A stretch of 64,000 nt of DNA, from the IMG/VR virus record IMGVR_UViG_3300048587_000114, positions 3,646 through 67,645 of that record. The stretch is one strand, 5' to 3'. This DNA is from a virus. Under the pieces are notes generated by a model. The model was not told the origin of the DNA. It did no database searches and saw only the letters and a list, made by a program, of their open reading frames with translations. A program made the position numbers and the translations under genes. Below, in pieces: positions 10,114-60,777 of this stretch (positions within the stretch are counted from its first letter, which is position 1; each line of letters begins with the position of its first letter).

Positions 10114-13100
10114 ATGGGTCACAGAGTAGCAGAGCTTGAAGTCGTTGTTAATGCCAACGTTGGTCAAGCGCAACGAGAGCTTAATAATCTAAACCGTACC
10201 TTCCACAACATTATTGCTGGTGGTGCGCTCTTGGGTGCCGGTGGCGGACTCGTTGGATGGTTCAAGGATGCCGTAACATCCGGTGCCCAATTTGAGCAAA
10301 CCATGATCCGTGTGCAGCAGCTTGCCACGGGTGCGGAAGTAAGTGTAGACGCACTTACGAAGAAAGCGTTCGCCGTTGACCAAACAACCATTTACTCAGC
10401 ACAGCAAATTGCTGAAGCGATGGAGCAACTTGGTCGTGAAGGATTTACCGGAGAGCAAATCCTTGGCGGTTGGACGGACGCTGCGGTTAACTTCGCAGCG
10501 GTTATTGATGAAGATTTGACACTTGCCACGAACATCTTCGGGCAAGTCGCCCGTGTGTTTAAAGATGAGGGACTAAGCGCGGCAAGAACTGCCGACATTC
10601 TCTCACAGGCGATCCTCCGTTCCGGACGTCCTGCGGCTGAGTTCGCAACTGGTATGCAGTATATCGGTTCCATCGCGGCTCAGTTGGGCGTACCGCTAGA
10701 AGAAACTGCTACATCACTTTCCTACTTGCAGTCACTTGGTATCAAGGGTCGTTCCGCTGGTACCGGTTTGCGAAGCATGTTTACGGAACTTGCGGCGGGA
10801 GCCGATGAGTTCGGTATGAGTCATGGTGTGCAAGCGTTCGATCCCGTAACCGGGAACTTCGTCGGTATGCCGAAGATCATTGACCAATTCAATGAACTGC
10901 TTTCAACTATGTCGAAAGCGGAAGGTTTGTCATTCCTAGAAGATATTTTCGGAAAGCCTGCGTCGTCTCCGTTGTACGCCCTCTTTACCGGTGGAACCGA
11001 AGCCTACGATGAGCACCTTCGAAAGATGGAGGACTTGGGGACGGCTGCGGCATTCATGCGTACATTGATGGATACGATTGGTGGTTCGCTTGACCGCTTC
11101 GAAGCTGCGGCATCGAACGCCATGCGACAGATCGGTGTTATCGGTGGTAACATGATTCGCCCATTCATCGACTTGTTGACCGAGCTACTTGGTGCCTTTG
11201 CAAATGCTCCACGAATCGTTCATATCGCAGCGGCGGCATTCGTTGTACTTACGGGTGCGTTGATGGGGCTTGCCGGAGCAATCATGGTATTCCGAGGACT
11301 CGGAGGGTTTGGTCTGCTCTTTAGCGGTATCGGTATTATGTCCGCAACCTTCCTTGGATTTGTTGCCGTTATTGCCGGAGTCATTGCAGCGTTCGCGTTC
11401 TTCAGTGATGAGTTGGGAGCCGCAAAAGACGCGGTAGCCGACTTCTTTGAGCCTGTGTCTGAACTTATCGACTACCTTAGTCGAATCAATCAAGCGGACA
11501 ATCCCCTTGACTTCCTAATTGCACAGGGGTGGGACGGTCCGTTGCTTACCTTTGCGGAGGGGCTTGGTGATGTGGTCGAAGGGCTGGCCGACCTATGGTA
11601 CTTCATCAGTCGTGGTGATTGGGACCGTTTCATGCGCCGACTACCGGGCGAACTAGAACAAATGTGGAACGGCGTCAAGCTGGCGTTCAGCGTAGTCCCG
11701 GAAATACTTGGATTCACAAGCTGGTCTGATCTTCTTATGGGCGCGTTGGCGTGGACTGGCGAAGAAATTGTGCTACCGATGCTCACGGCGGTAGTTGAGT
11801 TTGGACTATCGCTGGTAAACAAGACAGTTGGGTGGGTTGGTGACCTGTGGAGTTGGATTAAGGGACAAATCTTCGGCGGTCCTGCGGCAACCGTCAACGC
11901 CGACGGGTCGAAAACAGTCAACTACCTGCCGAACGAAGAACGAAATATTCCGTTCGGTACGATCCTTGTAGAAGGTGCCGTTGCTCTCGGAACCGGTTTT
12001 ACGCACATTGCCGGTCGCCTTTGGGAGTGGCTGCAAGAACAATTGATGGGTGGACCAACCTATGGGCCGCCGACAGGAACCCGAAACGGAACGGGTTCCT
12101 TTAACACCGTATTGAGCGAGCCAATTCCGCTCGGAACAGTTATCCTCGAAGCTGCCTTTGAACTAGCCGAAAATGTGTGGGGGGAAGCTGGTAACTTCGC
12201 CGGGTGGGTTGTGTCAAAAATCTCCGAAGTAGGCGACATTTTCATTCCGGTTGAGGGTGCAAAAATCTCACTTGTTAACGCTGTGTTGGAGCTTGACAAC
12301 GCGCAAAATGGCGAAGACGGCGGTGGGCTGTTCGGAAGTATTGGTCGTACTATTGCAGAGGCTATTCCTGACGACCTTAACTTTATTCGAGAAATTGGTA
12401 CTGGCTTCGGGAAGGCGATTGGAAAGGCGATTGCGGCTATTAGCCCAGACGATATGTCTGATCGCGTGGATTGGCAGAACTTCGGTCAAAACATCGGTGC
12501 CTTTATCCGCGATGGTATGTCGTTGATTGCAAAAGCTCCAACCGCGTTGGTATTTGGACTTAGCGAGTTTATCTGGTCCGCAATCTCCGAAATCACCGTT
12601 GAAGACTTGAAAGGTATTGGGGATATTGGTGGCGGTATCATTGCTGCTATTGGTGGGTTCCTTGCCGGGTTGCTTACTGGTAAAGACTCGTCCGAATGGA
12701 GTTTCGGGGAGTTCCAAGCCAAGCTCGGAGAAAAAATCTACGGTGCTATCGGTCGGGCAATCCGATTTGGTGATGGAAGTGGCGGCAAGGGGGGCTTTAC
12801 CGGGCTGTTTGACGATATGGGCAACCAAATTGTCGCACCGGATACGCTATCCGGCTCTATTGCCGACATTGTTATGGAAGAAATTGGCAATGCAATCACG
12901 CGAATTGTTGAAAAAACGGGTGAACTTATTCCGAAGATTTGGGATGGTTTAGAGTTTGCTATTCCGATGATTCCGTTTACGTGGAATGGGCTTGTCACAG
13001 GGGTTGATACCGCTGTTGCGTTTGTTGAGGAACAAATTACTCGGCTTCGAAACAAACTTAAAGAATTGTTCGGATTGCAGGATGAGGTTGGACGGCAAGG

Positions 13101-28206: not shown

Positions 28207-28963
28207 CGGTTCCTCCCTTCAGTGCATCAATGACAACTGCAAGCGATGGGTTCTCCATCTTATCAGGCACACGCTTGACGCTCATCGGTTGTCGTACCTT
28301 TGCAGAAAACTTGTTGGTTCCAGCGAGATGCAAGACACGTTGACCGGTCTTTTCGTTCCATGTCAGGTAGCCAATGGAGTCAACCGCTGCACCAACGTTG
28401 ATACTGGAACCCGGTGTGAGCGCGGGTCCAACCTTAACGGTTCCGGTAGCTTCGTCCCTAGTCTCTCGTTCCAAGGCCGTGAAAATGGTGTTAATCCCTT
28501 TGGTGTGGGTGAGCGTACGGAACGCCCGTACCATAGCCAGTAGGCGATCATTCACTTTCCCCCAATCCTGCTGTGTGACTTGTTCACGCGTCCCCACGAC
28601 GCTTTTCAGACACATCGTCTGTGCTTCACTGAGTGAGTCAATAATGACCGTCTTGAAGGTGTTCTCTGTGTCAGACAAAAGCGCATCGTACACACGCTGC
28701 AAGTCTGACCATTGCGACGGACGGTACACCATAATGTCAGGCCGGTCGCTGATGGACATGGTGCCGCCTTCAAGGTCTACGTACAGCACGTCACGCCCAT
28801 TCGGTGTGTCCTGTGCCGTCCCACAAAGCGTCGTCTTTCCGGCTCCGGAAACACCGTACAGGAGAATGTTGAGTCCCCAAACCTGTCCAACTTCGGACGC
28901 TTTGAGTAGGTTCAGGTTGCCGAGTTTCGGCGTGAGAACGGTTTTATCTGTCATACGGTCCAT
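28199..28963 (-). CDS. AAA_24 / Sak4-like ATPase (ssDNA annealing)
   Basis: YGVSGAGKT, DLEGG, VIIDSLSE, QQDWG. Confidence 0.88.
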   Translation of the reverse strand: MDRMTDKTVLTPKLGNLNLLKASEVGQVWGLNILLYGVSGAGKTTLCGTAQDTPNGRDVLYVDLEGGTMSISDRPDIMVYRPSQWSDLQRVYDALLSDTENTFKTVIIDSLSEAQTMCLKSVVGTREQVTQQDWGKVNDRLLAMVRAFRTLTHTKGINTIFTALERETRDEATGTVKVGPALTPGSSINVGAAVDSIGYLTWNEKTGQRVLHLAGTNKFSAKVRQPMSVKRVPDKMENPSLAVVIDALKGGTDA

Positions 28964-51780: not shown

Positions 51781-52040
51781 TGCGAGACTTCAGCTATCGC
51801 CGCCCGTGGGAGAACCAGACGGCGCAATGCCCCGCGTGTGGAAGTACCGCTGTGTTTACTGACCGGGATCAGCCCGAAGTGGACACCACGGAAACGAACA
51901 AGCTCTATCCGATTGGGGGAGGGCCGACGAGATATATCGGAACGCTCATCTTCTGGAAACCGTGCATGAGTTGCCGGGACCGCTTGGAATGGTGTGTATC
52001 AGCGGAAGCCCTTGACACGCAGCCGAGACGTGGTGTATAG
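51780..52040 (+). CDS. Zn-ribbon hypothetical protein
   Basis: CPACGS...CMSC. Confidence 0.5.
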   Translation: MRDFSYRRPWENQTAQCPACGSTAVFTDRDQPEVDTTETNKLYPIGGGPTRYIGTLIFWKPCMSCRDRLEWCVSAEALDTQPRRGV

Positions 52041-52041
52041 T
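52012..52041 (+). promoter_or_regulatory. Promoter of tRNA array
   Basis: TTGACA-N18-TATAGT. Confidence 0.65.
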
Positions 52042-52153: not shown

Positions 52154-52227
52154 TTGGGTGTCGTTCAATGGTAGGACACGTCGCTGTTAACGATGGTATT
52201 GGGGTTCGAATCCCTGCACCCGAGCCA
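52154..52227 (+). tRNA. tRNA-Asn(GTT)
   Basis: Cloverleaf, CGTCG-CTGTTAA-CGATG, CCA end. Confidence 0.9.
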
Positions 52228-52229
52228 AT

Positions 52230-52304
52230 GGGAAGGTAGCGTAATGGAAACGCGGCTCTCTCCAAAAGAGTCAGATGGGGGTTCGAATCCTCTCCGTCCC
52301 GCCA
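52230..52304 (+). tRNA. tRNA-Trp(CCA)
   Basis: GCTCT-CTCCAAA-AGAGT, CCA end. Confidence 0.88.
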
Positions 52305-52305
52305 A

Positions 52306-52379
52306 TGCTTTGTCGGCTAACGGTAGGCCGCTTCGCTCTGGACGAAGTTGTTGTGGTTCGAATCCACACGAAGCAACCA
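52306..52379 (+). tRNA. tRNA-Gln(CTG)
   Basis: CTTCG-CTCTGGA-CGAAG, CCA end. Confidence 0.9.
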
Positions 52380-52387
52380 GAAACCCC

Positions 52388-52416
52388 TTGACAACGAATC
52401 AAGGGTATGCTAAAGT
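52388..52416 (+). promoter_or_regulatory. Internal tRNA-array promoter
   Basis: TTGACA-N17-TAAAGT with extended -10 TG. Confidence 0.6.
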
Positions 52417-52561
52417 AGATACAGTGGAAATGAGGAACGAGACGAACACAGAAATCGAGCCGAAAGGATAACGATGATGTAACCGCTCAACTCACTTCTT
52501 TGAGGGCTGTGCCGTGCAGGTCGCGGTGCATAAGGAACCGGTAAGCACCGGGAACCCAAAT

Positions 52562-52636
52562 GTCGGGGTAGCTCAGTGGTAGAGCACTTGTCTCATAAGC
52601 AAGAACGCATGGGTTCGAATCCCTTCCCCGCCACCA
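52562..52636 (+). tRNA. tRNA-Met(CAT) (Ile2 not excluded)
   Basis: CTTGT-CTCATAA-GCAAG, CCA end. Confidence 0.85.
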
Positions 52637-52752
52637 GAGGTTCGCAGCGTTCCGTGATAAACTGCGTGTGGACGTGCGATTCACATAAAATAAAGAGCAC
52701 AGACCCCGCAGACACGATGCGGGACGGGGTTGCAAACCTGTCGAAAAATCGG

Positions 52753-52823
52753 GCCGGGTTGATGTAGGTGGACTGGCATATCCCCCTGAAGGGGAAAGCG
52801 TGGGTTCGACTCCCACACCGGAG
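52753..52823 (+). pseudogene. Degenerate tRNA-like element
   Basis: Good T arm GTGGG-TTCGACT-CCCAC and TCCCC-CTGAA-GGGGA arm, poor acceptor stem. Confidence 0.45.
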
Positions 52824-52824
52824 T

Positions 52825-52923
52825 TTGCTCGTAGGACAATTGGCAGTCTAACCGTGTAAATCGGGGGCGTACGACCTTGGAGGCACGGACATGTTGCAGG
52901 TTCGAACCCTGCCGAGCAAGCCA
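52825..52923 (+). ncRNA. tRNA-like RNA with 27-nt anticodon loop
   Basis: Acceptor TTGCTCG/CGAGCAA, D arm GGAC/GTCT, CCGTG/CACGG stem, T arm GCAGG-TTCGAAC-CCTGC, G+CCA. Confidence 0.75.
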
Positions 52924-53025
52924 CCCGCGATCTGACCAATTGCGGGGAGAGTCGCGGTTCGGCGGGAGTCGTAACCCAATGAACCCCCTGACCGGGCAGG
53001 GATGGAGTAACGATCCACCCGGTAT

Positions 53026-53098
53026 TTCGCAGTAGCTCAGGGGTTAGAGCACATCTCTGATACAGATGGTGCCGGTGGTTCGATTCCACCCTGCGGAA
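53026..53098 (+). tRNA. tRNA-Ile(GAT)
   Basis: CATCT-CTGATAC-AGATG; no encoded CCA. Confidence 0.85.
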
Positions 53099-53227
53099 CT
53101 GAGGCCGGTGAAGCCTGCGATGCGAAGCGTCGAGAGTACGACGATAGTACCGCGAAGATACCTCGGGTCGGCACCCTATGATACGTGTCGTGGGCCGCTG
53201 GCAATAGCCTGTGTATGAGGCCCGAAT

Positions 53228-53300
53228 GCTGGCATACGCTAATCGGCAGGCGAACGCTCTTTCAAAGCGTTGTGTGCGAGTTCGACTCTCGCTGTCAGTA
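53228..53300 (+). tRNA. tRNA-Glu(TTC)
   Basis: ACGCT-CTTTCAA-AGCGT. Confidence 0.85.
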
Positions 53301-53450
53301 CCGGGTAGATGTACTACCCTTTACAAATCACCGTGTCTCTGGCCGCACTCCCTGTGGTACGACCTGTTCGGTGCAAGCCCGAACGAAAAGCCCCGGACTA
53401 ACCAACCGGGCACGCCCCGGATACATCCCAAATCCGCTCCGGGGCACCTT

Positions 53451-53523
53451 GCCGGGATCGTCTAGCGGTCTAGGACGTATGGTTCTCAGCCATGCAGCCG
53501 GGGTTCGAATCCCCGTCTCGGTA
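53451..53523 (+). tRNA. tRNA-Glu(CTC)
   Basis: TATGG-TTCTCAG-CCATG. Confidence 0.85.
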
Positions 53524-53645
53524 CGAGCCTTGGGCTTCGGCGTAAAACTGCCCACGACCTGAGTATAACGTCGTTAAACTCGCTCCGGAGGATACGTCCT
53601 CCGTCTGGACCTGTAGCTCAATCGGGAGAGCGTCGGTACTGGTAT

Positions 53646-53719
53646 GGGAGATTTGCATAATGGAAGTGCTCTTGGCTTACATCCAAGAAGCGGTGGTTCG
53701 ATTCCATCATCTCCTACCA
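53646..53719 (+). tRNA. tRNA-Val(TAC), nested inside the split tRNA
   Basis: CTTGG-CTTACAT-CCAAG, CCA end. Confidence 0.88.
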
Positions 53720-53738
53720 GTTTCAAGGAGAGTAAATA

Positions 53739-54161
53739 GTGCCAATGCCATACAAACCGAGAGCGGAATGTAAACGCTGCGGGGCTCTGGTAAAGTTTAC
53801 AAAAACGGTTTTCTGTAGTCAGGAATGCCAAATTACACATAAGCGAGAAACCTATCTCGCTCGGTGGAAGTCTGGACAGGAAAAAGGCTACGGAAAGTAC
53901 GGGCAACTGTCTAACACGATTCGGGAGTATATCTTGAAGCGTGCCGGGTATCAATGCGAGGAATGTGGGTGGCACAAAAAGCATCCCGTTACTGGTAGCG
54001 TACCGGTGGAGGTACACCATAAAGACGGTGACTATGCAAATACGCATGAGGGCAATCTGATTGTTCTGTGCCCAAACTGCCATTCACTTACTCCTAACCA
54101 CGGAGTTTATAATAAAGGGAAGGGAAAACCGTATATTCGCCTTGCAAAAGCAGTACCGTAG
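53739..54161 (+). CDS. HNH endonuclease nested inside the split tRNA
   Basis: CEECGW...EVHHKDG...NLIVLCPNCHSLT; RBS AAGGAG. Confidence 0.9.
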   Translation: MPMPYKPRAECKRCGALVKFTKTVFCSQECQITHKRETYLARWKSGQEKGYGKYGQLSNTIREYILKRAGYQCEECGWHKKHPVTGSVPVEVHHKDGDYANTHEGNLIVLCPNCHSLTPNHGVYNKGKGKPYIRLAKAVP

Positions 54162-54248
54162 GTTCTAGGTTCGAGTCCTAGTAGGTCCACCAGTCGAAGA
54201 AGCAGGGGACATAGGGTACCCGTCTTAATAATCCTGCGGAGACTGCAT

Positions 54249-54334
54249 GGGGATGTTTTGGTGTTCGCCCGGTAGATGCGAGGGTACAACCTTGATGATC
54301 GCCGGAAACGTGGGTTCGACTCCCACCATCTCCA
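54249..54334 (+). ncRNA. Miniature tmRNA-like RNA (tRNA-like domain only)
   Basis: GGGGATG/CATCTCC with G3:U70, stemless D loop TTTTGGTGTTCGC, T arm GTGGG-TTCGACT-CCCAC, closed by a short hairpin. Confidence 0.7.
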
Positions 54335-54492
54335 CCGAGACGTTGAGCAGTCGTCTCAAAAAACAGGCTCACGGTTGATTGCACCGGGCTGTTCTCCTGC
54401 ACGGAGACGGCAAGCAATCCTAACGCTTCGGGTCCGCTGGACGGGCGGCTGTGCAGAGAGACGGTAGAAATCCCTCACCGAAGCGTTCACTT

Positions 54493-54574
54493 GGGTTGGT
54501 ATGCAAGCGGCTCAAAGCAGCGTGTCTGTAAAACACGTCCTACTGGTTCACAGGTTCGAATCCTGTCCAGCCCA
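54493..54574 (+). tRNA. tRNA-Tyr(GTA)
   Basis: CGTGT-CTGTAAA-ACACG, long variable arm. Confidence 0.88.
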
Positions 54575-54583
54575 CCGGAGGCA

Positions 54584-54841
54584 ATGATGCGATTTGCTGA
54601 ACAGAACGTAGAAATCGAATCGCTCTACATTTCGCTGGCAATTCTGACTATCGGCATCTATGCAGCCGTGTCATCAGACGATCCAGAGGAAATGAAGCAA
54701 CAACTGAAGAATGCCGCCGTGCATGCACAAGCGGCCTTCCCTGAGCCGTACCACACGGTACTCATGGAGAAGATCGGAGAGCATGCGTTTCGGGATGACG
54801 TCGAGCAGACGCGTCCGCAATATCACACTGAGGGCCGATAG
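54584..54841 (+). CDS. Hypothetical protein
   Basis: RBS GGAGG; stop codon lies inside tRNA-Ala. Confidence 0.55.
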   Translation: MMRFAEQNVEIESLYISLAILTIGIYAAVSSDDPEEMKQQLKNAAVHAQAAFPEPYHTVLMEKIGEHAFRDDVEQTRPQYHTEGR

Positions 54842-54903
54842 CTTAACGGGAAAGCTACTACCTTGCACGTAGTCAGATTGGGGTTCGAATCCCCATTGGT
54901 CCA
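54832..54903 (+). tRNA. tRNA-Ala(TGC)
   Basis: ACTAC-CTTGCAC-GTAGT, G3:U70. Confidence 0.9.
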
Positions 54904-54927
54904 CCGAGTAGGTGAAAGGAGAACACG

Positions 54928-55206
54928 TTGCCTATTCTTTCGTCAGTGAAACAAAAGACCAAGGTTTCGACCAGTTCAACGATTGAAACGACACTGGAAG
55001 CGAAACTCGCAGAAGTCGCGGAACTGACAGAGCAACTTGAAGCAACCGCTGTGCAAGAGATTGACGCATCGAATCAGTCGATTGCTGATCTTGAATCGCG
55101 GATTGCAGCAATTCAACAACGGAAGATGATTGCCAAGGGACGTATCGAACGAGCGGCACAAACCAGAGCGTTGTTCCAACCCGTTCCTCCGGTACAAACC
55201 AAGTAA
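54928..55206 (+). CDS. Coiled-coil hypothetical protein
   Basis: RBS AAGGAG, TTG start. Confidence 0.55.
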   Translation: MPILSSVKQKTKVSTSSTIETTLEAKLAEVAELTEQLEATAVQEIDASNQSIADLESRIAAIQQRKMIAKGRIERAAQTRALFQPVPPVQTK

Positions 55207-55240
55207 TGATCTTTTGATGGTGATGCAAGGAAGTGATACC

Positions 55241-55621
55241 GTGCAGCTAGTATGCAACCAGTGTGAGAAATCATACAAAGCAGAAAAGAGAACGTCGAAA
55301 TACTGTTCCCGAGCTTGCAGCAACACGGCACGCCGAGGGATGACGTATTCGAAAGACTCTCACGGTAACAGTTCCAGACAACGCCTTAATTTGCTGAAAA
55401 ACACGTTCAACTTTACCGAGTGTATGGTAGAGGGTTGTGGCTATACAAAAACGTTTGACATTCACCGATATATACCCGGTAAATTGGGTGGAGAATATGT
55501 CATCGGCAATATGTATGCTATTTGCCCAAACTGCCATGCAGAAGTATCTCGGGGAATTGTAACGTTTGAAAAAGTAGACGATAAAACACTTCGGATCAGT
55601 GGGGTAACGGTAGCCCAATAG
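55241..55621 (+). CDS. HNH endonuclease
   Basis: CNQC...YCSRAC; CMVEGC...DIHR...ICPNCHAE; stop lies inside tRNA-Ser; start uncertain. Confidence 0.8.
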   Translation: MQLVCNQCEKSYKAEKRTSKYCSRACSNTARRGMTYSKDSHGNSSRQRLNLLKNTFNFTECMVEGCGYTKTFDIHRYIPGKLGGEYVIGNMYAICPNCHAEVSRGIVTFEKVDDKTLRISGVTVAQ

Positions 55622-55675
55622 TCTTGAAAACTATCTAACCGAAAGGTTATGTGAGTTCAAATCTCACCTGATCCT
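55593..55675 (+). tRNA. tRNA-Ser(TGA)
   Basis: ATAGT-CTTGAAA-ACTAT, long variable arm. Confidence 0.85.
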
Positions 55676-55679
55676 CCGT

Positions 55680-55765
55680 GGACGATTGGGATAAGGGTAT
55701 TCCAGAGGGTTGCTATCCCTCCCAACCGCAAGGTTGTGTGCGTTCGAATCGCACATCGTCCTCCA
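55680..55765 (+). tRNA. tRNA-Ser(GCT)
   Basis: GAGGG-TTGCTAT-CCCTC, long variable arm, CCA end. Confidence 0.88.
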
Positions 55766-55788
55766 TCTGAGAAAAGGTTTATATACGC

Positions 55789-56121
55789 ATGCCAAAAGTT
55801 ATAAAGTATGCCGACTACATTCCTTTGTGGAAGGCGGGACTTGTAAGCGGAAATCGCGGTATAATACATATAGACGTCTCTGCGAATGTGCGCCGTTACT
55901 TGCTTGAAAGGTGCGGAAATACGTGTGAAGAATGCGGTTGGGGCGCGATAAATCCGTTTACCGGAAAAGTAACACTTGAAGTTCATCACATTGATGGAGA
56001 CTATCAGAACAGCAGAGAAGAAAACTTAAAAGTGCTCTGCCCAAACTGTCACTCTTTAACCTATAACTATAGAGCAAGAAATAAGTCCGGGTTGGCACAA
56101 AGCCTACCCAAGAAAAGGTAA
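55789..56121 (+). CDS. HNH endonuclease
   Basis: CEECGW...LEVHHIDG...NLKVLCPNCHSLT. Confidence 0.9.
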   Translation: MPKVIKYADYIPLWKAGLVSGNRGIIHIDVSANVRRYLLERCGNTCEECGWGAINPFTGKVTLEVHHIDGDYQNSREENLKVLCPNCHSLTYNYRARNKSGLAQSLPKKR

Positions 56122-56125
56122 TCAT

Positions 56126-56200
56126 CGGGGTTTAGCGTAAGGGTTAGCGCACGTCGTTTGGGACGATGTGGACAGGTTTCGAGTACCTGATCCCCGACCA
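56126..56200 (+). tRNA. tRNA-Pro(TGG)
   Basis: CGTCG-TTTGGGA-CGATG, CCA end. Confidence 0.88.
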
Positions 56201-56217
56201 CGGGAAGGAGAAACCGT

Positions 56218-56307
56218 ATGAACTGGAACCTGATTGCAGCGATTTTCTTGGGCGTATTCTTTGCGCTCCTTGCATGGGCACTATTGACCGATCAAATCGT
56301 TCTCTAA
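56218..56307 (+). CDS. 29-aa membrane peptide
   Basis: RBS AAGGAG; MNWNLIAAIFLGVFFALLAWALLTDQIVL. Confidence 0.55.
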   Translation: MNWNLIAAIFLGVFFALLAWALLTDQIVL

Positions 56308-56316
56308 GGAGGGAAT

Positions 56317-57093
56317 GTGGTTCAGATTAACCGTGAGGGGCCAAAAGTCTTTTTGGTCGGGTATACACAGCCGGTCATGCCAGAAATCCGCCGCTATCTA
56401 GATCATCGCGGTGTGAAATGGATTACGGAGAATCCGAAGGATGATCCACTGGCGATTGTTGAAATGGCAGGCCGTGTGTGCTACCACAGTTGGCGGAATC
56501 CGCAAGGGCGGACACGTCAGGAATATATTGCCGAGCAAATTATCGGGCATGAGCATGGAAGCGTGCTCGAACACGTCTGGTTCAATATGCTGGTGGCAGA
56601 CCTTCCCCGAAGTTCGCAGCTTGAATTGGTGCGACATGGGGAAGGAACGGGATTTAGTTTCGAAAGTCAACGGTTTACGGACGCTCATCTACGATTCGTG
56701 GTTCCACCACGGCTACGGGAGGACGACGATGCCATTGCACTCTTTACAAGCGCGGCGAATCTCGCACAAGACTACTACACAGCGTTGCAGGCACTGTCGG
56801 GGTCCGACTCCGATGAAGGAACGCTTGCACGGAAACGCATCAAGGAAGCAGCACGGGCTGTGCTCCCGAATGCCGCTGGAAGCGACGGTATGGTAAGCAT
56901 GAATGGCCGTGCCGCACGGCACATCATTAATCTGCGATCCAACGAACATGCGGACCTCTCAATCAGAGAGTTTGCATGGGAAGTGTATCAGGCGATTTCA
57001 GATGTTGCTCCGGCACTCTTTGCCGACGCAACCGTGAACTATGGAGCGAGTGACGGGATTCCGTCTGTCTCGTTCGAACATCCGAAGGTCTAG
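56317..57093 (+). CDS. thyX: Flavin-dependent thymidylate synthase
   Basis: AGRVCY, HGSVLEH, ELVRH...SQR, EAARAVLPN. Confidence 0.9.
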   Translation: MVQINREGPKVFLVGYTQPVMPEIRRYLDHRGVKWITENPKDDPLAIVEMAGRVCYHSWRNPQGRTRQEYIAEQIIGHEHGSVLEHVWFNMLVADLPRSSQLELVRHGEGTGFSFESQRFTDAHLRFVVPPRLREDDDAIALFTSAANLAQDYYTALQALSGSDSDEGTLARKRIKEAARAVLPNAAGSDGMVSMNGRAARHIINLRSNEHADLSIREFAWEVYQAISDVAPALFADATVNYGASDGIPSVSFEHPKV

Positions 57094-57160
57094 GAGAATG
57101 CACGGGCCGTCAGACTACTGCACATCGTAAGAACAGGCCCGGAGACGCGTCCGGGCACAT

Positions 57161-57234
57161 TCAGGGATCGGTTAACGGTAGGCCGATGGTCTTTGGAACC
57201 ATCTGTATAGGTTCGAATCCTATTCCCTGATCCA
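57161..57234 (+). tRNA. tRNA-Gln(TTG)
   Basis: ATGGT-CTTTGGA-ACCAT, CCA end. Confidence 0.9.
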
Positions 57235-57235
57235 T

Positions 57236-57324
57236 GCCCTTCTGGTGGAACTGGCAGACACGACGGCCTCAAACGCCGGAGCCGAGGGATCGGCGTACAG
57301 GTTCAAGTCCTGTGAGGGGTACCA
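57236..57324 (+). tRNA. tRNA-Leu(CAA)
   Basis: CGGC-CTCAAAC-GCCG, long variable arm, CCA end. Confidence 0.85.
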
Positions 57325-57325
57325 C

Positions 57326-57354
57326 TTGACAAGTAGTCGGAAATCGGGTATACT
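57326..57354 (+). promoter_or_regulatory. Internal tRNA-array promoter
   Basis: TTGACA-N17-TATACT. Confidence 0.8.
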
Positions 57355-57375
57355 GATTTCAGTGAAGGAGACGAG

Positions 57376-57615
57376 ATGCCGAAGATCGCATTTATCAAAT
57401 GGGACACAGGCGACTGGATTCAGATGTACGTCAACGGGGAGAAAGTCTATGAAGGACATTCGATCCCAAGAGACGAACTTCTGAGACTGGCCGGAGTAGA
57501 GTTCGACTCCTACGAAATCCTCGGAGAGAGCGATGAAGCGGAAATGATCGGTTGGTCGGGAAAGTCCCTTGACGAAGCACTTGTCATTGTGAACGACGTA
57601 CTAGTGTGTTACTAG
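57376..57615 (+). CDS. Hypothetical protein
   Basis: RBS AAGGAG; GDWIQMYVNGEKVYEGHS. Confidence 0.6.
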   Translation: MPKIAFIKWDTGDWIQMYVNGEKVYEGHSIPRDELLRLAGVEFDSYEILGESDEAEMIGWSGKSLDEALVIVNDVLVCY

Positions 57616-57622
57616 TACACAT

Positions 57623-57707
57623 GCGTGGGTGGTGGAACTGGTATACACGCTAGTCTTAGAAACTAGTGCCCGAGAGGGCGTGATGGGTTCGAATCCCTCC
57701 CTGCGTA
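57623..57707 (+). tRNA. tRNA-Leu(TAG)
   Basis: CTAGT-CTTAGAA-ACTAG, long variable arm. Confidence 0.88.
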
Positions 57708-57833
57708 CCGTAGCCAAGCGCCTCTCCCGAGAGAGCCGACCATGAATCGTTAGTCTCGGTGAAGCAATTCGGGCTGGAAAGACGGATGCATACGGTGAGC
57801 CAGCAGTTATGTCCGGACTCAATCGGGCACATA

Positions 57834-57901
57834 GGATATGTGTAGCTCAATTGGCAGAGCACCGTCTAAAACCGGAGATTCGGTTTAAGTCCGACACTTC
57901 C
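57834..57901 (+). pseudogene. Degenerate tRNA
   Basis: Canonical D arm TAGCTCAATTGGCAGAGC, shortened anticodon arm, T loop TTTAAGT, bulged acceptor stem. Confidence 0.55.
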
Positions 57902-57906
57902 CTCAT

Positions 57907-57978
57907 GCTGATGTAGCTCAGTGGTAGAGCGTCTGATTGAAGTCCAGATGGTCGGCGGTTCGAATCCGCCTGTCAGCA
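57907..57978 (+). tRNA. tRNA-Phe(GAA)
   Basis: TCTGA-TTGAAGT-CCAGA. Confidence 0.85.
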
Positions 57979-58103
57979 CCGGTCGAATAATCCGATAGAC
58001 CAAAAGAACCGGAGCGTTACTCACACGCTTGCAAGCCAGATATGGTGCGACGGTACGGGTTGAGATTTCTGATTTCGGCCAAATGACGTACGCATTTGGC
58101 AAC

Positions 58104-58179
58104 ATCCCTGTGGTATAATGGACAGTGCAGCACGTTTCTACCGTGCAAGGTGCGGGTTCGAATCCTGCCGGGGATACCA
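58104..58179 (+). tRNA. tRNA-Arg(TCT)
   Basis: GCACG-TTTCTAC-CGTGC, CCA end. Confidence 0.88.
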
Positions 58180-58180
58180 C

Positions 58181-58254
58181 GGTCGCATAGCTCAATTTGG
58201 GAGAGCACCGGCTTGTCACGCCGGAGGTTGCGGGTTCGATCCACGTCGTGACTG
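58181..58254 (+). tRNA. tRNA-Asp(GTC)
   Basis: CCGGC-TTGTCAC-GCCGG. Confidence 0.82.
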
Positions 58255-58287
58255 CTAACAACTAACCTATCAAAACGGAGGTTAAGC

Positions 58288-58716
58288 ATGGGTAATGTGA
58301 AAAAGGCGGAAACACTCGGTATGCCGCATGGCACGGCTACAAATCGCTTACGTAAACAGTTGTTATTTAAGTATGTCTGTCTTGCAGGAGACAATATATG
58401 TTATAAGTGTAAGAATATAATAGAACTGATTGACGATTTATCTATTGAACACATTAAACCGTGGGAGGGTAGGTCCGCAGAACTATTTTGGGATTTGAGT
58501 AATATAGCGTTTAGTCATATCTCTTGTAATAGACCGCACGTTAACGGAGCGGTAAGACGCCGGATAAGTTTAGATGGTGATGTTTTTCGTTGTTGTTCAT
58601 GTAAACAGACGAAAGAACGGTCGAATTTTGGTATAAGCAGTAGTCGATGGAATAATGTGCAGTCAGAATGTAAAGATTGTCGTAATAAACGCCCGAGAGT
58701 GCGTCAGTCGTCGTGA
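58288..58716 (+). CDS. HNH-like endonuclease
   Basis: CYKC...SIEHIKPW...NIAFSHISCN; C-terminal CCSC...CKDC. Confidence 0.75.
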   Translation: MGNVKKAETLGMPHGTATNRLRKQLLFKYVCLAGDNICYKCKNIIELIDDLSIEHIKPWEGRSAELFWDLSNIAFSHISCNRPHVNGAVRRRISLDGDVFRCCSCKQTKERSNFGISSSRWNNVQSECKDCRNKRPRVRQSS

Positions 58717-58735
58717 TCGCCAGTAGCTCGTTTTT

Positions 58736-58810
58736 GCCGGTGTAGTGTAAAGGAAAACACGCAACGCTTCGAACGTTGTAGTGCGGGTTCGAGTCCTGCC
58801 AGCGGCACCA
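58736..58810 (+). tRNA. tRNA-Arg(TCG)
   Basis: CAACG-CTTCGAA-CGTTG, CCA end. Confidence 0.88.
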
Positions 58811-58825
58811 CGGAAAGGGTACGGT

Positions 58826-59086
58826 ATGCAAGTCGAAGTCATGTACCGGGAGCCTGATACGTACCCGGCAATTCACTGGAACGGCCATAACAGTGCTGAT
58901 GTGCAAGCGTGGCTGGATCGGAATCTTCGTTTGTCGGGGGACTACGATAATCAATATTGTGTGCGGAATAATGTTCTCTATCTTGGAATGTATACCCTTC
59001 CGGTGAATACGTGGTTGGTGGCTGACGGGAGCGTGCAGGACTTTACCGAAAGGGAATTTGCAAGTATATTTCTTGTCGTTTCCTAA
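58826..59086 (+). CDS. Hypothetical protein
   Basis: AIHWNGHN...NTWLV...EFASIF. Confidence 0.55.
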   Translation: MQVEVMYREPDTYPAIHWNGHNSADVQAWLDRNLRLSGDYDNQYCVRNNVLYLGMYTLPVNTWLVADGSVQDFTEREFASIFLVVS

Positions 59087-59093
59087 GTTCTAT

Positions 59094-59166
59094 GGTGTTT
59101 ATGGCCGAGCGGTCTAGGCGCATGCCTGTGGAGCATGTTACACGGGTTCGAACCCCGTTAGGCACC
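59094..59166 (+). tRNA. tRNA-His(GTG)
   Basis: CATGC-CTGTGGA-GCATG, G-1:C73. Confidence 0.88.
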
Positions 59167-59172
59167 CTGAGT

Positions 59173-59246
59173 GAGCGGTTGGCCGAGTGGTTAGGCGCGT
59201 CTCTGCAACAGACAGGACAGCGGTTCGAATCCGCTACCGCTCTCCA
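59173..59246 (+). tRNA. tRNA-Cys(GCA)
   Basis: GTCT-CTGCAAC-AGAC, U73, CCA end. Confidence 0.88.
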
Positions 59247-59247
59247 C

Positions 59248-59319
59248 GCCTTTGTAACTCAATGGTAGAGTAAGCGTCTTTTAAACGCGAAGTTGTGGGT
59301 TCGAATCCCACCGGGGGCA
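59248..59319 (+). tRNA. tRNA-Lys(TTT)
   Basis: GCGT-CTTTTAA-ACGC. Confidence 0.85.
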
Positions 59320-59321
59320 CT

Positions 59322-59498
59322 ATGGTACACGTTGTCGGTGTATTGGCGTTGCTTGTCGGGATGATTGTTCTCTGTCGGCACAGCCTGCATGACACACAAC
59401 TCCTGATGGACTTGGAGGGTATTGCCATTTTTGTCCTGATGGTGTACTGTGTACTTCGACTGTATGGTGTGAAACTCGCTTTTGTAGCTCAATGGTAG
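59322..59498 (+). CDS. Small membrane protein
   Basis: Two hydrophobic segments; weak RBS; stop lies inside tRNA-Lys(CTT). Confidence 0.35.
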   Translation: MVHVVGVLALLVGMIVLCRHSLHDTQLLMDLEGIAIFVLMVYCVLRLYGVKLAFVAQW

Positions 59499-59549
59499 AG
59501 CAAGGCTCTCTTAAAGCCGGGGTTGGTGGTTCGAATCCACTCAGGAGCA
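59478..59549 (+). tRNA. tRNA-Lys(CTT)
   Basis: GGCT-CTCTTAA-AGCC. Confidence 0.85.
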
Positions 59550-59669
59550 CGGCTCAATGCGGTGAACAGGTAAAGCTTCCGTGTGGTTGTCCCGACTTCC
59601 ACCCCCAAAGGCCACGGGGACAATAGTTTGCGGCACGTACCGGCGCGTGTGGGAAAACACCGGAACCCT

Positions 59670-59743
59670 GTCAGTGTGACCGAGTGGTTAGGTGCTTGCC
59701 TTCCAAGCAATGAACGCGGGTTCGATTCCTGTCACTGACTCCA
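59670..59743 (+). tRNA. tRNA-Gly(TCC)
   Basis: TTGC-CTTCCAA-GCAA, U73, CCA end. Confidence 0.88.
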
Positions 59744-59760
59744 TGTGCTACGGAGAACCA

Positions 59761-60069
59761 ATGAACGGTTTAGACTACACAAAATACATTACACTATGGA
59801 AAGCTGGACATGTAGATGGTAGCCGTGGTAAAGTAGGAGTGTCTAAACACGTTCGCCGTTATTTGTTTGAGAAATACGATAATAAGTGTGCTGTTTGCGG
59901 CTGGTGTGAAACACATCCGATAACTGGTGAAGTTCCACTGGAAGTACATCACATAAGCGGACACGCGAATACGGAGAGCAATCTTATTTTGCTGTGTCCC
60001 AATTGTCACAGTCTTACGGGTACCTATAGAGGTAGAAATAAGGGACACGGAAGGACAACCCGAAAATAA
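59761..60069 (+). CDS. HNH endonuclease
   Basis: CAVCGW...PLEVHHISG...NLILLCPNCHSLT. Confidence 0.9.
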   Translation: MNGLDYTKYITLWKAGHVDGSRGKVGVSKHVRRYLFEKYDNKCAVCGWCETHPITGEVPLEVHHISGHANTESNLILLCPNCHSLTGTYRGRNKGHGRTTRK

Positions 60070-60070
60070 T

Positions 60071-60149
60071 GCATCTGTAGCTCACGTTGGTCCCGAGCAG
60101 CGATCTTGTAAATCGCAGGACGCAGGTTCGATTCCTGTCAGATGCTCCA
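60071..60149 (+). tRNA. tRNA-Thr(TGT)
   Basis: GCGAT-CTTGTAA-ATCGC, CCA end. Confidence 0.88.
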
Positions 60150-60284: not shown

Positions 60285-60313
60285 AAAAGAGCGGCCCTTC
60301 GGGGCCGCTTTTT
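60285..60313. terminator. Bidirectional intrinsic terminator
   Basis: AAAAG-AGCGGCCC-TTCG-GGGCCGCT-TTTT between convergent units. Confidence 0.85.
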
Positions 60314-60777
60314 CATGTCTGGAAAATGCTGAAGTAAATTAAAAAGAGGAACGCTCCGTAGAGCATCCACGGTTGATCCCACCGGACAACCTCCCGGCGC
60401 GACATTGATACTGAAGATGCTCGGTTTCGTCGCTTGCTTCCTCGTTTTGTCTTTCCCAAAACGCGAAGTCGTTCCTTCCGGTAGTAGGAGACTTTCGCCT
60501 GAACGGTTCGGCCCGGAATGGTCCGGGCACCTTTGGCAAGGTTGCACGTTCGGCACGACGTGACAAGGTTACGTGGGTCATCGGTTCCTCCTTTCGCCCG
60601 TGGCTTAACGTGGTCCAGTTGCAGCATGTACCGAGAGTCACAATACACGCACTTGTTATTGTCGCGTTTATAGATGCTCCGGCGCTGTTCGACACTGATC
60701 CAGTTACGGTCGTACGAGTTCGAACGTTTGTGTTTGAGTGGTAGCGTCATATGTGTACCCACCTGAAAGGGCATCAC
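60313..60777 (-). CDS. HNH endonuclease
   Basis: CVYC...LDHVKPRAKGG...NLVTSCRTCNLAKG. Confidence 0.9.
   Translation of the reverse strand: MMPFQVGTHMTLPLKHKRSNSYDRNWISVEQRRSIYKRDNNKCVYCDSRYMLQLDHVKPRAKGGTDDPRNLVTSCRTCNLAKGARTIPGRTVQAKVSYYRKERLRVLGKTKRGSKRRNRASSVSMSRREVVRWDQPWMLYGAFLFLIYFSIFQT

What the first reader, a model, noticed from the sequence alone, without database searches (positions are those of the whole stretch)
54249..54337. 86-nt tmRNA reduced to its tRNA-like domain
Seen: GGGGATG/CATCTCC-A acceptor with G3:U70, a stemless D loop (TTTTGGTGTTCGC, compare tmRNA TGGATTCGAC), a canonical T arm, and only a roughly 46-nt hairpin (CCGG..GAT..CGAGG/CCTTG..ATC.CCGG) where tmRNA has its pseudoknots and tag ORF. 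Known: G3:U70 is the AlaRS determinant and this domain binds SmpB and EF-Tu. The order is not that of permuted two-piece tmRNA. Inference: a tag-less tmRNA mimic that could titrate SmpB, or release stalled peptides without adding a degradation tag.
Basis: partly seen in the sequence, partly recalled or inferred. Interest (0 to 1): 0.82.

Follow-up and report, generated by a model that had tools for sequence, protein, structure and literature searches.

The report
Phage mini-tmRNA without a tag
A phage tRNA gene cluster holds a short RNA gene that keeps only the tRNA-like end of the bacterial ribosome-rescue RNA (tmRNA), a kind already reported once in a mycobacteriophage and which turns out to be common in uncultured phages.

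Summary
Window 54249-54337 (+) matches the Rfam tmRNA model end to end, with about 40 nt where 326 model positions (pseudoknots and tag frame) should be: 46.4 bits against a gathering score of 47, E 4e-17. ARAGORN calls no tRNA there.

A covariance model built without the window sequence scores it 50.4 bits. The next best hit in the window is tRNA-Ala at 25.3.

The kind is not new. Mycobacteriophage DS6A has a published 'TLD only' tmRNA, and a similar molecule is reported to inhibit tmRNA, perhaps by titrating SmpB (PMC4131195, PMC11915505, passages). I located the DS6A element, and it fits the same model.

What is added here:
- At least 62 IMG/VR loci carry such 69-90-nt elements, 57 distinct sequences in all with DS6A, the window and five MAG contigs, and their stems covary strongly.
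- A strict pattern found only 5 copies in 185,579 species genomes.
- None of 11 carrier records searched encodes SmpB.

The window copy is an atypical member. It has UUCGCC...AAAC instead of UUCGAC...GGAC and a longer three-segment hairpin. It sits inside a 26-tRNA array.

Function is inferred, not shown: most likely a tag-less competitor of host tmRNA. I file it as a new member of a known kind, of moderate interest.

The parts
54249..54255 (+). acceptor stem, 5' strand GGGGAUG (G3 of the G3:U70 pair at 54251)
54256..54268 (+). stemless D-loop analogue UUUUGGUGUUCGC (GG and UUCG as in tmRNA; GCC where the family usually has GAC)
54269..54305 (+). helix-2-like hairpin replacing pseudoknots and tag frame: CCGGU/GCCGG, bulged A, GAU/AUC, internal loop G/AUG, CGAGG/CCUUG, loop GUACAA
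   Evidence: fold; the only difference from close relatives inside the element, G54297A, lies in the unpaired AUG.
54306..54309 (+). linker AAAC (family consensus GGAC)
54310..54326 (+). T arm GUGGG-UUCGACU-CCCAC
54327..54337 (+). acceptor 3' strand CAUCUCC (U70 at 54331), discriminator A (54334), then CC and G: CCA is only partly encoded, as in tRNA-Tyr, Ala, Ser(UGA), Leu(UAG) and Phe of the same array
52154..60149 (+). co-directional array of 26 tRNA genes (all 20 amino acids, including tRNA-Ala UGC at 54832-54905) in which the element sits, with HNH ORFs and a ThyX gene between them
52012..52041 (+). promoter-like site (TTGACA-18-TATAGT, 11 of 12) upstream of the array; consensus match only

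Best explanation
The element is a phage gene for a CDS-less ('TLD-only') tmRNA, the same kind of molecule as the one in mycobacteriophage DS6A.

Inferred mechanism, step by step:
1. It is transcribed with the tRNA array and cut out by the host's tRNA-processing enzymes. RNase P would cut at 54249, and the 3' end would be trimmed and completed to CCA.
2. Host AlaRS charges it with alanine through G3:U70 and A73.
3. It binds host SmpB, since the phage has no SmpB gene, and EF-Tu.
4. It has no resume codon, tag frame or stop codon, so it cannot complete trans-translation. It would therefore compete with host tmRNA for SmpB and for stalled ribosomes. This would lower SsrA tagging, and hence proteolysis, of proteins made during infection.

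What is shown here is the anatomy, the family membership, the covariation in the family, the absence of a tag frame and the absence of phage SmpB. Expression, processing, charging, SmpB binding and the effect on the host are inferred.

My odds: about 0.9 that it is a homologue of the tmRNA tRNA-like domain, about 0.75 that it is a functional RNA, and about 0.45 that inhibition or competition is its main action.
For: Identity of the window element:
- RF00023 aligns both ends of the model, 1-374, across 89 nt.
- The best overlapping match of the tRNA clan is tmRNA, not tRNA.
- ARAGORN finds no tRNA there.
- Model R2, built from 57 other sequences without the window, scores it 50.4 bits against at most 25.3 for the 26 tRNAs.

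Link to DS6A:
- The unannotated DS6A element at JN698994 28478-28561 scores 62.8 bits on model R1, which was built without it.
- It scores 43.2 bits on RF00023.

The family is under selection:
- In 57 distinct sequences, 98.3% of pair cells are standard pairs. Column shuffles give 70.7% and slid partners give 47-56%.
- 11 of 17 pairs change on both sides, including all 5 helix-2 pairs.
- In 5 of 5 carrier records searched, the minis pass the Rfam cut-off (54.6-76.3 bits) and no full-length tmRNA is present.
- SmpB (PF01668) is absent from 11 of 11 carrier records, including the window's complete genome and DS6A.

Context in the window:
- The element has the same strand as the array.
- It has the same AU at -2/-1 as 11 of 26 tRNAs, and the same A-CC-G 3' end as five tRNAs.
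- No + strand terminator-like site lies in the array after 52348.
- Close relatives in two soil-metagenome runs keep the element. Their single change falls in an unpaired position.

Literature (passages only):
- TLD fragments accept the peptide on the ribosome (PMC3895274).
Against: - No RNA evidence exists for this element.
- The window copy departs from the family where conservation is highest. It has UUCGCC instead of UUCGAC (48 of 57 have UCGAC) and AAAC instead of GGAC (46 of 57). It lacks the purine-rich RAR-N-CC inner motif found in 45 of 57. If those positions matter for SmpB binding, this copy may bind poorly.
- Its RF00023 score is just under the curated cut-off.
- No distant homologue of this particular variant was found. 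There were 0 hits for the variant-specific pattern in metagenome contigs. The looser pattern gave one unrelated long-hairpin mini. So its own hairpin has no covariation support.
- G1-G4 and C69-A73 were fixed by my search patterns, so their invariance in the family is by construction. DS6A and the window are the exceptions.
- The inhibition experiment (Mao et al. 2009) was not readable here, and it used E. coli, not this phage's unknown host.
- Gene neighbours of the minis give no functional link. The commonest is a PHROG 284 exonuclease, in 10 loci.
Confidence: 0.5

Rival explanations
1. Tag-free rescue or alanine tailing. The charged mini-tmRNA with host SmpB enters stalled ribosomes and accepts the nascent chain. 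With no template to resume on, either one alanine is added and the chain is released by other factors, or further rounds add several alanines. The phage would gain ribosome recycling without the SsrA degron, or with a different C-terminal mark.
For: - All charging and ribosome-entry features are kept: G3:U70, A73, the T arm and the D-loop GG.
- Peptidyl transfer to a TLD-only tmRNA occurs (PMC3895274, passage).
- CDS-less mitochondrial tmRNAs are conserved together with SmpB and are thought still to help with incomplete mRNAs (PMC11915505, passage).
Against: [quoted passage not shown]
- No release step is encoded. I tested the idea that a conserved UAA/UAG after helix 2 acts as a stop codon. 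The first base is often G, C or A, and DS6A has CGAAAA, so I dropped it.
Confidence: 0.2
2. Decaying remnant. A formerly full-length phage tmRNA gene lost its middle by deletion and is now a non-functional pseudogene kept only by chance.
For: - The window copy lacks the family's most conserved internal motifs.
- It scores lowest but a few in the family (60.2 bits on R1) and falls under the Rfam cut-off.
- No distant homologue of its hairpin was found.
Against: - All stems are intact, with no mismatch in the acceptor or the T arm.
- Relatives at 95-99% identity keep the element, with one change in an unpaired base.
- The compact form is the rule in 57 distinct sequences with compensatory changes, so compactness itself is selected.
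- No leftover of a tag frame lies nearby. The flanks fold unremarkably, z = -1.47 and -0.07.
- The only other RF00023 signals in the genome are at or below 13.2 bits.
Confidence: 0.15
3. Decoy for something other than SmpB. The tRNA-like RNA soaks up a host nuclease or defence protein that attacks tRNA or tmRNA, in line with the idea that phage tRNA arrays counter tRNA-cleaving defences.
For: - It is placed inside a tRNA array.
- A phage anti-CRISPR is known to work together with tRNA and tmRNA fragments (PMC11662646, passages).
Against: - Most family members are not inside tRNA arrays. ARAGORN finds any tRNA gene in the held flanks of only 6 of the first 22 loci, and those lie 2.5 kb or more from the element.
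- Nothing in the sequence points to a specific nuclease target.
Confidence: 0.1
4. An unusual tRNA, or a tRNA-Ala pseudogene, with a long extra arm.
For: - It lies in a tRNA array and has G3:U70 like the array's tRNA-Ala.
- The hairpin loop GUACAA recalls a Val anticodon loop.
Against: - It has no D stem and no 7-nt anticodon loop.
- ARAGORN does not call it.
- tmRNA is the best match within the tRNA clan.
- The array already has tRNA-Ala(UGC) and all 20 specificities.
- The mini-tmRNA model separates it from all 26 tRNAs by 25 bits.
Confidence: 0.03

Closest known systems
TLD-only tmRNA of Mycobacterium phage DS6A (tmRNA Website tmID 11587; 'Standard, no CDS' form in the 2025 tmRNA database)
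   Same: - Both are phage-encoded and 84-89 nt long.
- Both have a 7-bp acceptor with G3:U70, a stemless D-loop analogue, a canonical T arm, and one short hairpin instead of pseudoknots and tag frame.
- Neither phage has an SmpB gene.
- Both match one covariance model.
   Different: - DS6A has UCGAC...GGCAC and the purine-rich stretch plus small inner hairpin typical of the family. The window copy has UUCGCC...AAAC and a longer three-segment hairpin.
- DS6A's copy lies between gp33 and a DNA polymerase III gene, not in a tRNA array.
- DS6A encodes an integrase. No relation between the two phages was seen.
Standard bacterial tmRNA (SsrA, Rfam RF00023)
   Same: The tRNA-like domain is shared: acceptor, G3:U70, A73, D-loop GG and UUCG, T arm, and the base of helix 2.
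   Different: About 326 model positions are missing: four pseudoknots, resume codon, tag reading frame and stop codon. It therefore cannot supply a template or a degradation tag.
CDS-less organellar tmRNAs (jakobid and oomycete mitochondria, Rfam RF02544; about 65-bp Mallomonadaceae plastid forms)
   Same: They are reduced to the tRNA-like domain, have no tag frame, and depend on an SmpB encoded elsewhere (PMC11915505, passages).
   Different: - They are organellar, mostly permuted two-piece genes. Here the gene is viral, one piece and in standard order.
- RF02544 was not the best clan match in the scan.
Synthetic TLD fragments used in structural and kinetic work (for example the Thermus TLD capped by UUCG, PDB 2CZJ)
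   Same: The design is the same: the 5' and 3' ends of tmRNA joined by a short capped helix. Such fragments bind SmpB, accept peptide, and with SmpB support template-free polyalanine synthesis in vitro (PMC3929946 and PMC3895274, passages).
   Different: The window element is a natural gene with a longer and different helix, and it has not been tested.

Membership tests
tmRNA (RF00023), tRNA-like domain | 7-bp acceptor stem with G3:U70 and discriminator A73 | tested here: met
   GGGGAUG/CAUCUCC followed by A
tmRNA (RF00023), tRNA-like domain | D-loop analogue without a stem, with GG and UUCG; canonical T arm (GGUUCGAnUCC) | tested here: met
   Alignment to the model consensus
tmRNA (RF00023), tRNA-like domain | Score at or above the curated gathering score (47 bits) | tested here: not met
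   46.4 bits, short by 0.6 bit. Five other minis score 54.6-76.3.
tmRNA (RF00023), full molecule | Pseudoknots PK1-PK4 and an mRNA-like domain with resume codon, tag frame and stop | tested here: not met
   Only about 40 nt stand where 326 model positions belong. ARAGORN predicts no tag peptide. No second tmRNA piece is in the genome. The permuted model scores 14.7 bits, E 1.3.
CDS-less phage mini-tmRNA (DS6A type) | One-piece gene under 100 nt: tRNA-like domain closed by a single helix-2 hairpin | tested here: met
   R2, built without the window, gives 50.4 bits, E 2.5e-9. DS6A scores 62.8 bits on R1.
CDS-less phage mini-tmRNA (DS6A type) | Family consensus UCGAC...GGAC at the base of helix 2 and the RAR-N-CC stretch with an inner hairpin | tested here: not met
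   The window has UUCGCC...AAAC and no such motif. In the family, 48, 46 and 45 of 57 have them. These are consensus features I derived here, not a published definition.
CDS-less phage mini-tmRNA (DS6A type) | Alanylation, SmpB binding, inhibition of host trans-translation | not testable with these tools
   Needs bench work. Known for a DS6A-like molecule only through citing passages.
tRNA (RF00005) | Cloverleaf with D stem and anticodon arm with a 7-nt loop | tested here: not met
   No ARAGORN call. Not listed at the Rfam gathering score. Lower than tmRNA within the clan.
Permuted two-piece tmRNA (RF04321) | The 3' half (T arm and CCA) lies upstream of the 5' half in the gene | tested here: not met
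   The gene order is standard. The permuted model gives 14.7 bits against a gathering score of 47.

The most novel reading that the evidence does not exclude
CDS-less mini-tmRNAs are a widespread class of RNA genes almost restricted to viruses. I found at least 57 distinct sequences, against nine 'standard, no CDS' entries in the 2025 tmRNA database. Phages would use them to switch off or re-programme the host's trans-translation, either by sequestering SmpB or by template-free alanine addition. In that reading they are an RNA-based takeover or counter-defence factor. The window copy would be a structurally distinct subtype recruited into a tRNA array.
Probability: 0.35. Interest if true: 0.7.

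Novelty: new member of a known kind. Interest (0 to 1): 0.45.

Why it matters
Trans-translation is the main ribosome-rescue and quality-control route in bacteria and is a drug target. A natural, compact RNA that phages carry to interfere with it would be useful in two ways. It would be a tool for blocking SmpB-tmRNA, and it would open a view on how phages protect their own truncated or cleaved-mRNA products from SsrA tagging.

The single published phage case, DS6A, could be taken for an oddity. The census here suggests a recurrent solution across many unrelated uncultured phages, with a conserved inner motif of unknown role.

Annotation pipelines miss these genes. ARAGORN called none of them a plain tmRNA, so they go unannotated.

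Tried and rejected
- **Stop-codon idea.** A UAA/UAG just after helix 2 in many minis might have acted as an immediate stop. I rejected this because the first base is G, C or A in many members, and DS6A has CGAAAA.
- **Second tmRNA piece or tag frame nearby.** None was found. The flanks 54194-54248 and 54338-54492 fold no better than shuffles.
- **attP-type ssrA fragment.** blastn hits in GenBank phages cover only the 3' 27-34 nt. The window element also has the 5' half, so it is not an attachment-site remnant.
- **Close cultured relatives.** There is no megablast match. The ThyX peptide scan of viral contigs found no relative. The large terminase is at most 46.9% identical to Rhizobium phages. 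The host remains unknown.
- **Homologues of the window's own variant.** The first metagenome-contig scan gave 0 hits. The second gave 1 hit, an unrelated long-hairpin mini, L143.
- **Expression.** No RNA holder is listed. The four runs laid are contigs and probably DNA, so nothing can be said on expression or RNA ends.
- **Functional neighbours.** Clustering of 596 ORFs around 69 loci gave no translation-related partner. The top cluster is a PHROG 284 exonuclease.
- **Sources not available.** Mao et al. 2009 is not held. Supplementary tables of the tmRNA database paper, which would list its nine 'standard, no CDS' entries, were not seen.
- **Literature searches for a described family of phage mini-tmRNAs**. 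Only the DS6A mentions turned up. Subscription journals are not covered.

Full report
**What is there**

The window is bases 3646-67645 of a 67,645-bp virus record with direct terminal repeats, estimated complete. Positions 52154-60149 (+) hold 26 tRNA genes covering all 20 amino acids. Five HNH-endonuclease-like ORFs (three over Pfam's own cut-off, two under it) and a ThyX gene lie between them, and a sixth HNH ORF lies just past the array on the other strand.

The finding lies between a tRNA 3' half (to 54193) and tRNA-Tyr (54493).
- Acceptor GGGGAUG/CAUCUCC with G3:U70.
- Discriminator A, then CC-G.
- A stemless D-loop analogue, UUUUGGUGUUCGC.
- A canonical T arm.
- One hairpin of 37 nt at 54269-54305.

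**Is it more than chance, and is it tmRNA-like rather than tRNA-like?**

- ARAGORN calls nothing there, and the default Rfam scan lists nothing.
- With the E-value threshold, RF00023 (tmRNA) aligns both ends of its 374-position model across the 89 nt. About 40 nt stand in for 326 positions. The score is 46.4 bits against a gathering score of 47, E 4.3e-17.
- tmRNA was the best of the overlapping matches in the tRNA clan.
- In the whole phage genome the next RF00023 signal is 13.2 bits, so there is no second piece and no full-length tmRNA.
- The permuted model gives 14.7 bits, E 1.3.
- Folding energy alone is not exceptional, z = -1.23.

**Relatives**

An IUPAC pattern modelled on the element found 22 IMG/VR loci with 78-80-nt look-alikes.

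A covariance model, R1, scored all 22 of the first set at 67 bits or more. It scored 40 of the 72 new loci at 51 bits or more. The other 32 are mostly 71-nt matches that I take to be ordinary tRNAs, and I did not analyse them further.

With DS6A, the window and five MAG contigs, this gives 69 sequences, 57 of them distinct. Covariation in them is strong:
- 98.3% of pair cells are standard pairs, against 70.7% in column shuffles and 47-56% with slid partners.
- 11 of 17 pairs change on both sides, including all five helix-2 pairs.

Two cautions apply. The alignment was fitted to the model. My patterns fixed G1-G4, G7 and C69-A73, so those columns say nothing.

A second model, R2, was built from 57 sequences without the window. 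It scores the window element 50.4 bits, E 2.5e-9. The best tRNA, tRNA-Ala, gets 25.3.

**Where the family lives**

- A strict version of the pattern hit only 5 places in one genome for each of 185,579 prokaryote species, all of them MAG contigs. The same pattern fits 52 of the 94 IMG/VR loci I hold.
- In five carrier records the minis themselves pass the Rfam tmRNA cut-off (54.6-76.3 bits), and no full-length tmRNA is present.
- SmpB is absent from 11 of 11 carrier records searched. Six of those records are at least 90% complete by CheckV or are a finished genome.
- Gene neighbours show no translation-related partner. The most frequent is a PHROG 284 exonuclease, next to or near the mini in 10 loci including DS6A.
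- Most minis are not in tRNA arrays. The window copy is the only one I saw inside an array.

**Family anatomy and how the window copy differs**

| Feature | Distinct sequences with it (of 57) | Window copy |
|---|---|---|
| UCGAC before helix 2 | 48 | UUCGCC |
| GGAC after helix 2 | 46 | AAAC |
| Purine-rich RAR-N-CC stretch with a 3-4-bp inner hairpin | 45 | absent; longer three-segment hairpin with loop GUACAA |
| CCA encoded | 25 | CC only |

The window copy is therefore an atypical member. A few others also deviate: L049 and L097 have plain short hairpins, and L058 and L143 have long ones.

No distant homologue of the window's own variant turned up. Contigs from two soil-metagenome runs carry the region at 95-99% identity. 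Inside the element they differ only at 54297 (G to A), in the unpaired AUG of the hairpin.

**What is already known**

- Hudson et al. 2014 list 'Mycobacterium phage DS6A (TLD only)'. [quoted passage not shown] 2009 (PMC4131195, passages).
- The 2025 tmRNA database paper repeats this. It counts nine 'standard, no CDS' sequences among 97,179, with 79 phage entries drawn from RefSeq viruses (PMC11915505, passages).
- I could not read Mao et al. or any supplements.
- I found the DS6A element, unannotated, at JN698994 28478-28561. It scores 62.8 bits on R1, which was built without it, and 43.2 bits on RF00023.

So the window element belongs to a published kind. I did not find the breadth of that kind in uncultured phages in print (searches; subscription journals are not covered).

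**Mechanism**

Shown here:
- A complete tRNA-like domain with the alanine identity pair.
- No template part.
- No phage SmpB.
- Co-orientation with the tRNA array.
- tRNA-like flanks: AU at -2/-1 as in 11 of 26 tRNAs, and A-CC-G as in five tRNAs.
- A promoter-like site upstream of the array, and no + strand terminator-like site within it after 52348.

Inferred: processing, charging, binding of host SmpB and EF-Tu, and competition with host tmRNA.

Published in-vitro work with TLD fragments shows peptide transfer and, with SmpB, template-free polyalanine synthesis (PMC3895274 and PMC3929946, passages). This keeps a second reading open, tag-free rescue or alanine tailing. I give sequestration or competition about 0.45, alanine addition about 0.2, a dead remnant about 0.15, another decoy role about 0.1 and an odd tRNA about 0.03.

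**Verdict**

The identity call is right, and the function is plausible but untested. The concept is not new. The window copy is a new, atypical member of a known kind. The family census is the more interesting by-product.

Noticed in passing
window 53607-54193: A tRNA-Val(UAC) gene is split in its anticodon loop by a 516-bp insert. The insert carries a second, intact tRNA-Val(UAC) (53646-53719) and an HNH endonuclease ORF (53739-54161). Contigs of two soil-metagenome runs join 53637 to 54154 with six other letters, and ARAGORN reads that uninterrupted form as tRNA-Val(tac). It looks like a homing-endonuclease cassette that brings its own replacement for the tRNA gene it disrupts.
   Followed up: partly
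window 52154-60149: The 67.6-kb phage carries 26 tRNA genes for all 20 amino acids. Five HNH ORFs lie between them, and a sixth lies at 60313-60777 on the other strand. That is an unusually dense tRNA set for a genome of this size.
   Followed up: no
L026 10275-10670 (-): ARAGORN calls a permuted tmRNA with tag peptide VEKLDIGLGFGIMYA* that overlaps the mini at 10574-10656. This is probably a mis-call seeded by the mini's T arm and CCA, but I did not check it.
   Followed up: no
family alignment A2/A3 (for example L074 2846-2929): 45 of 57 distinct minis share a purine-rich RAR-N-CC stretch followed by a 3-4-bp hairpin inside helix 2. Its role is unknown. It is not a conserved stop codon.
   Followed up: partly
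L030 (JN698994) 28478-28561: The published DS6A TLD-only tmRNA is not annotated in the GenBank record. It lies between gp33 and gp34. The same phage encodes an RtcB-like RNA ligase, gp76.
   Followed up: partly
L140 877-957 and L142 6730-6810: Two Christensenella MAG contigs carry a mini identical to that of IMG/VR locus L077. They may be a prophage or a mis-binned phage contig.
   Followed up: no
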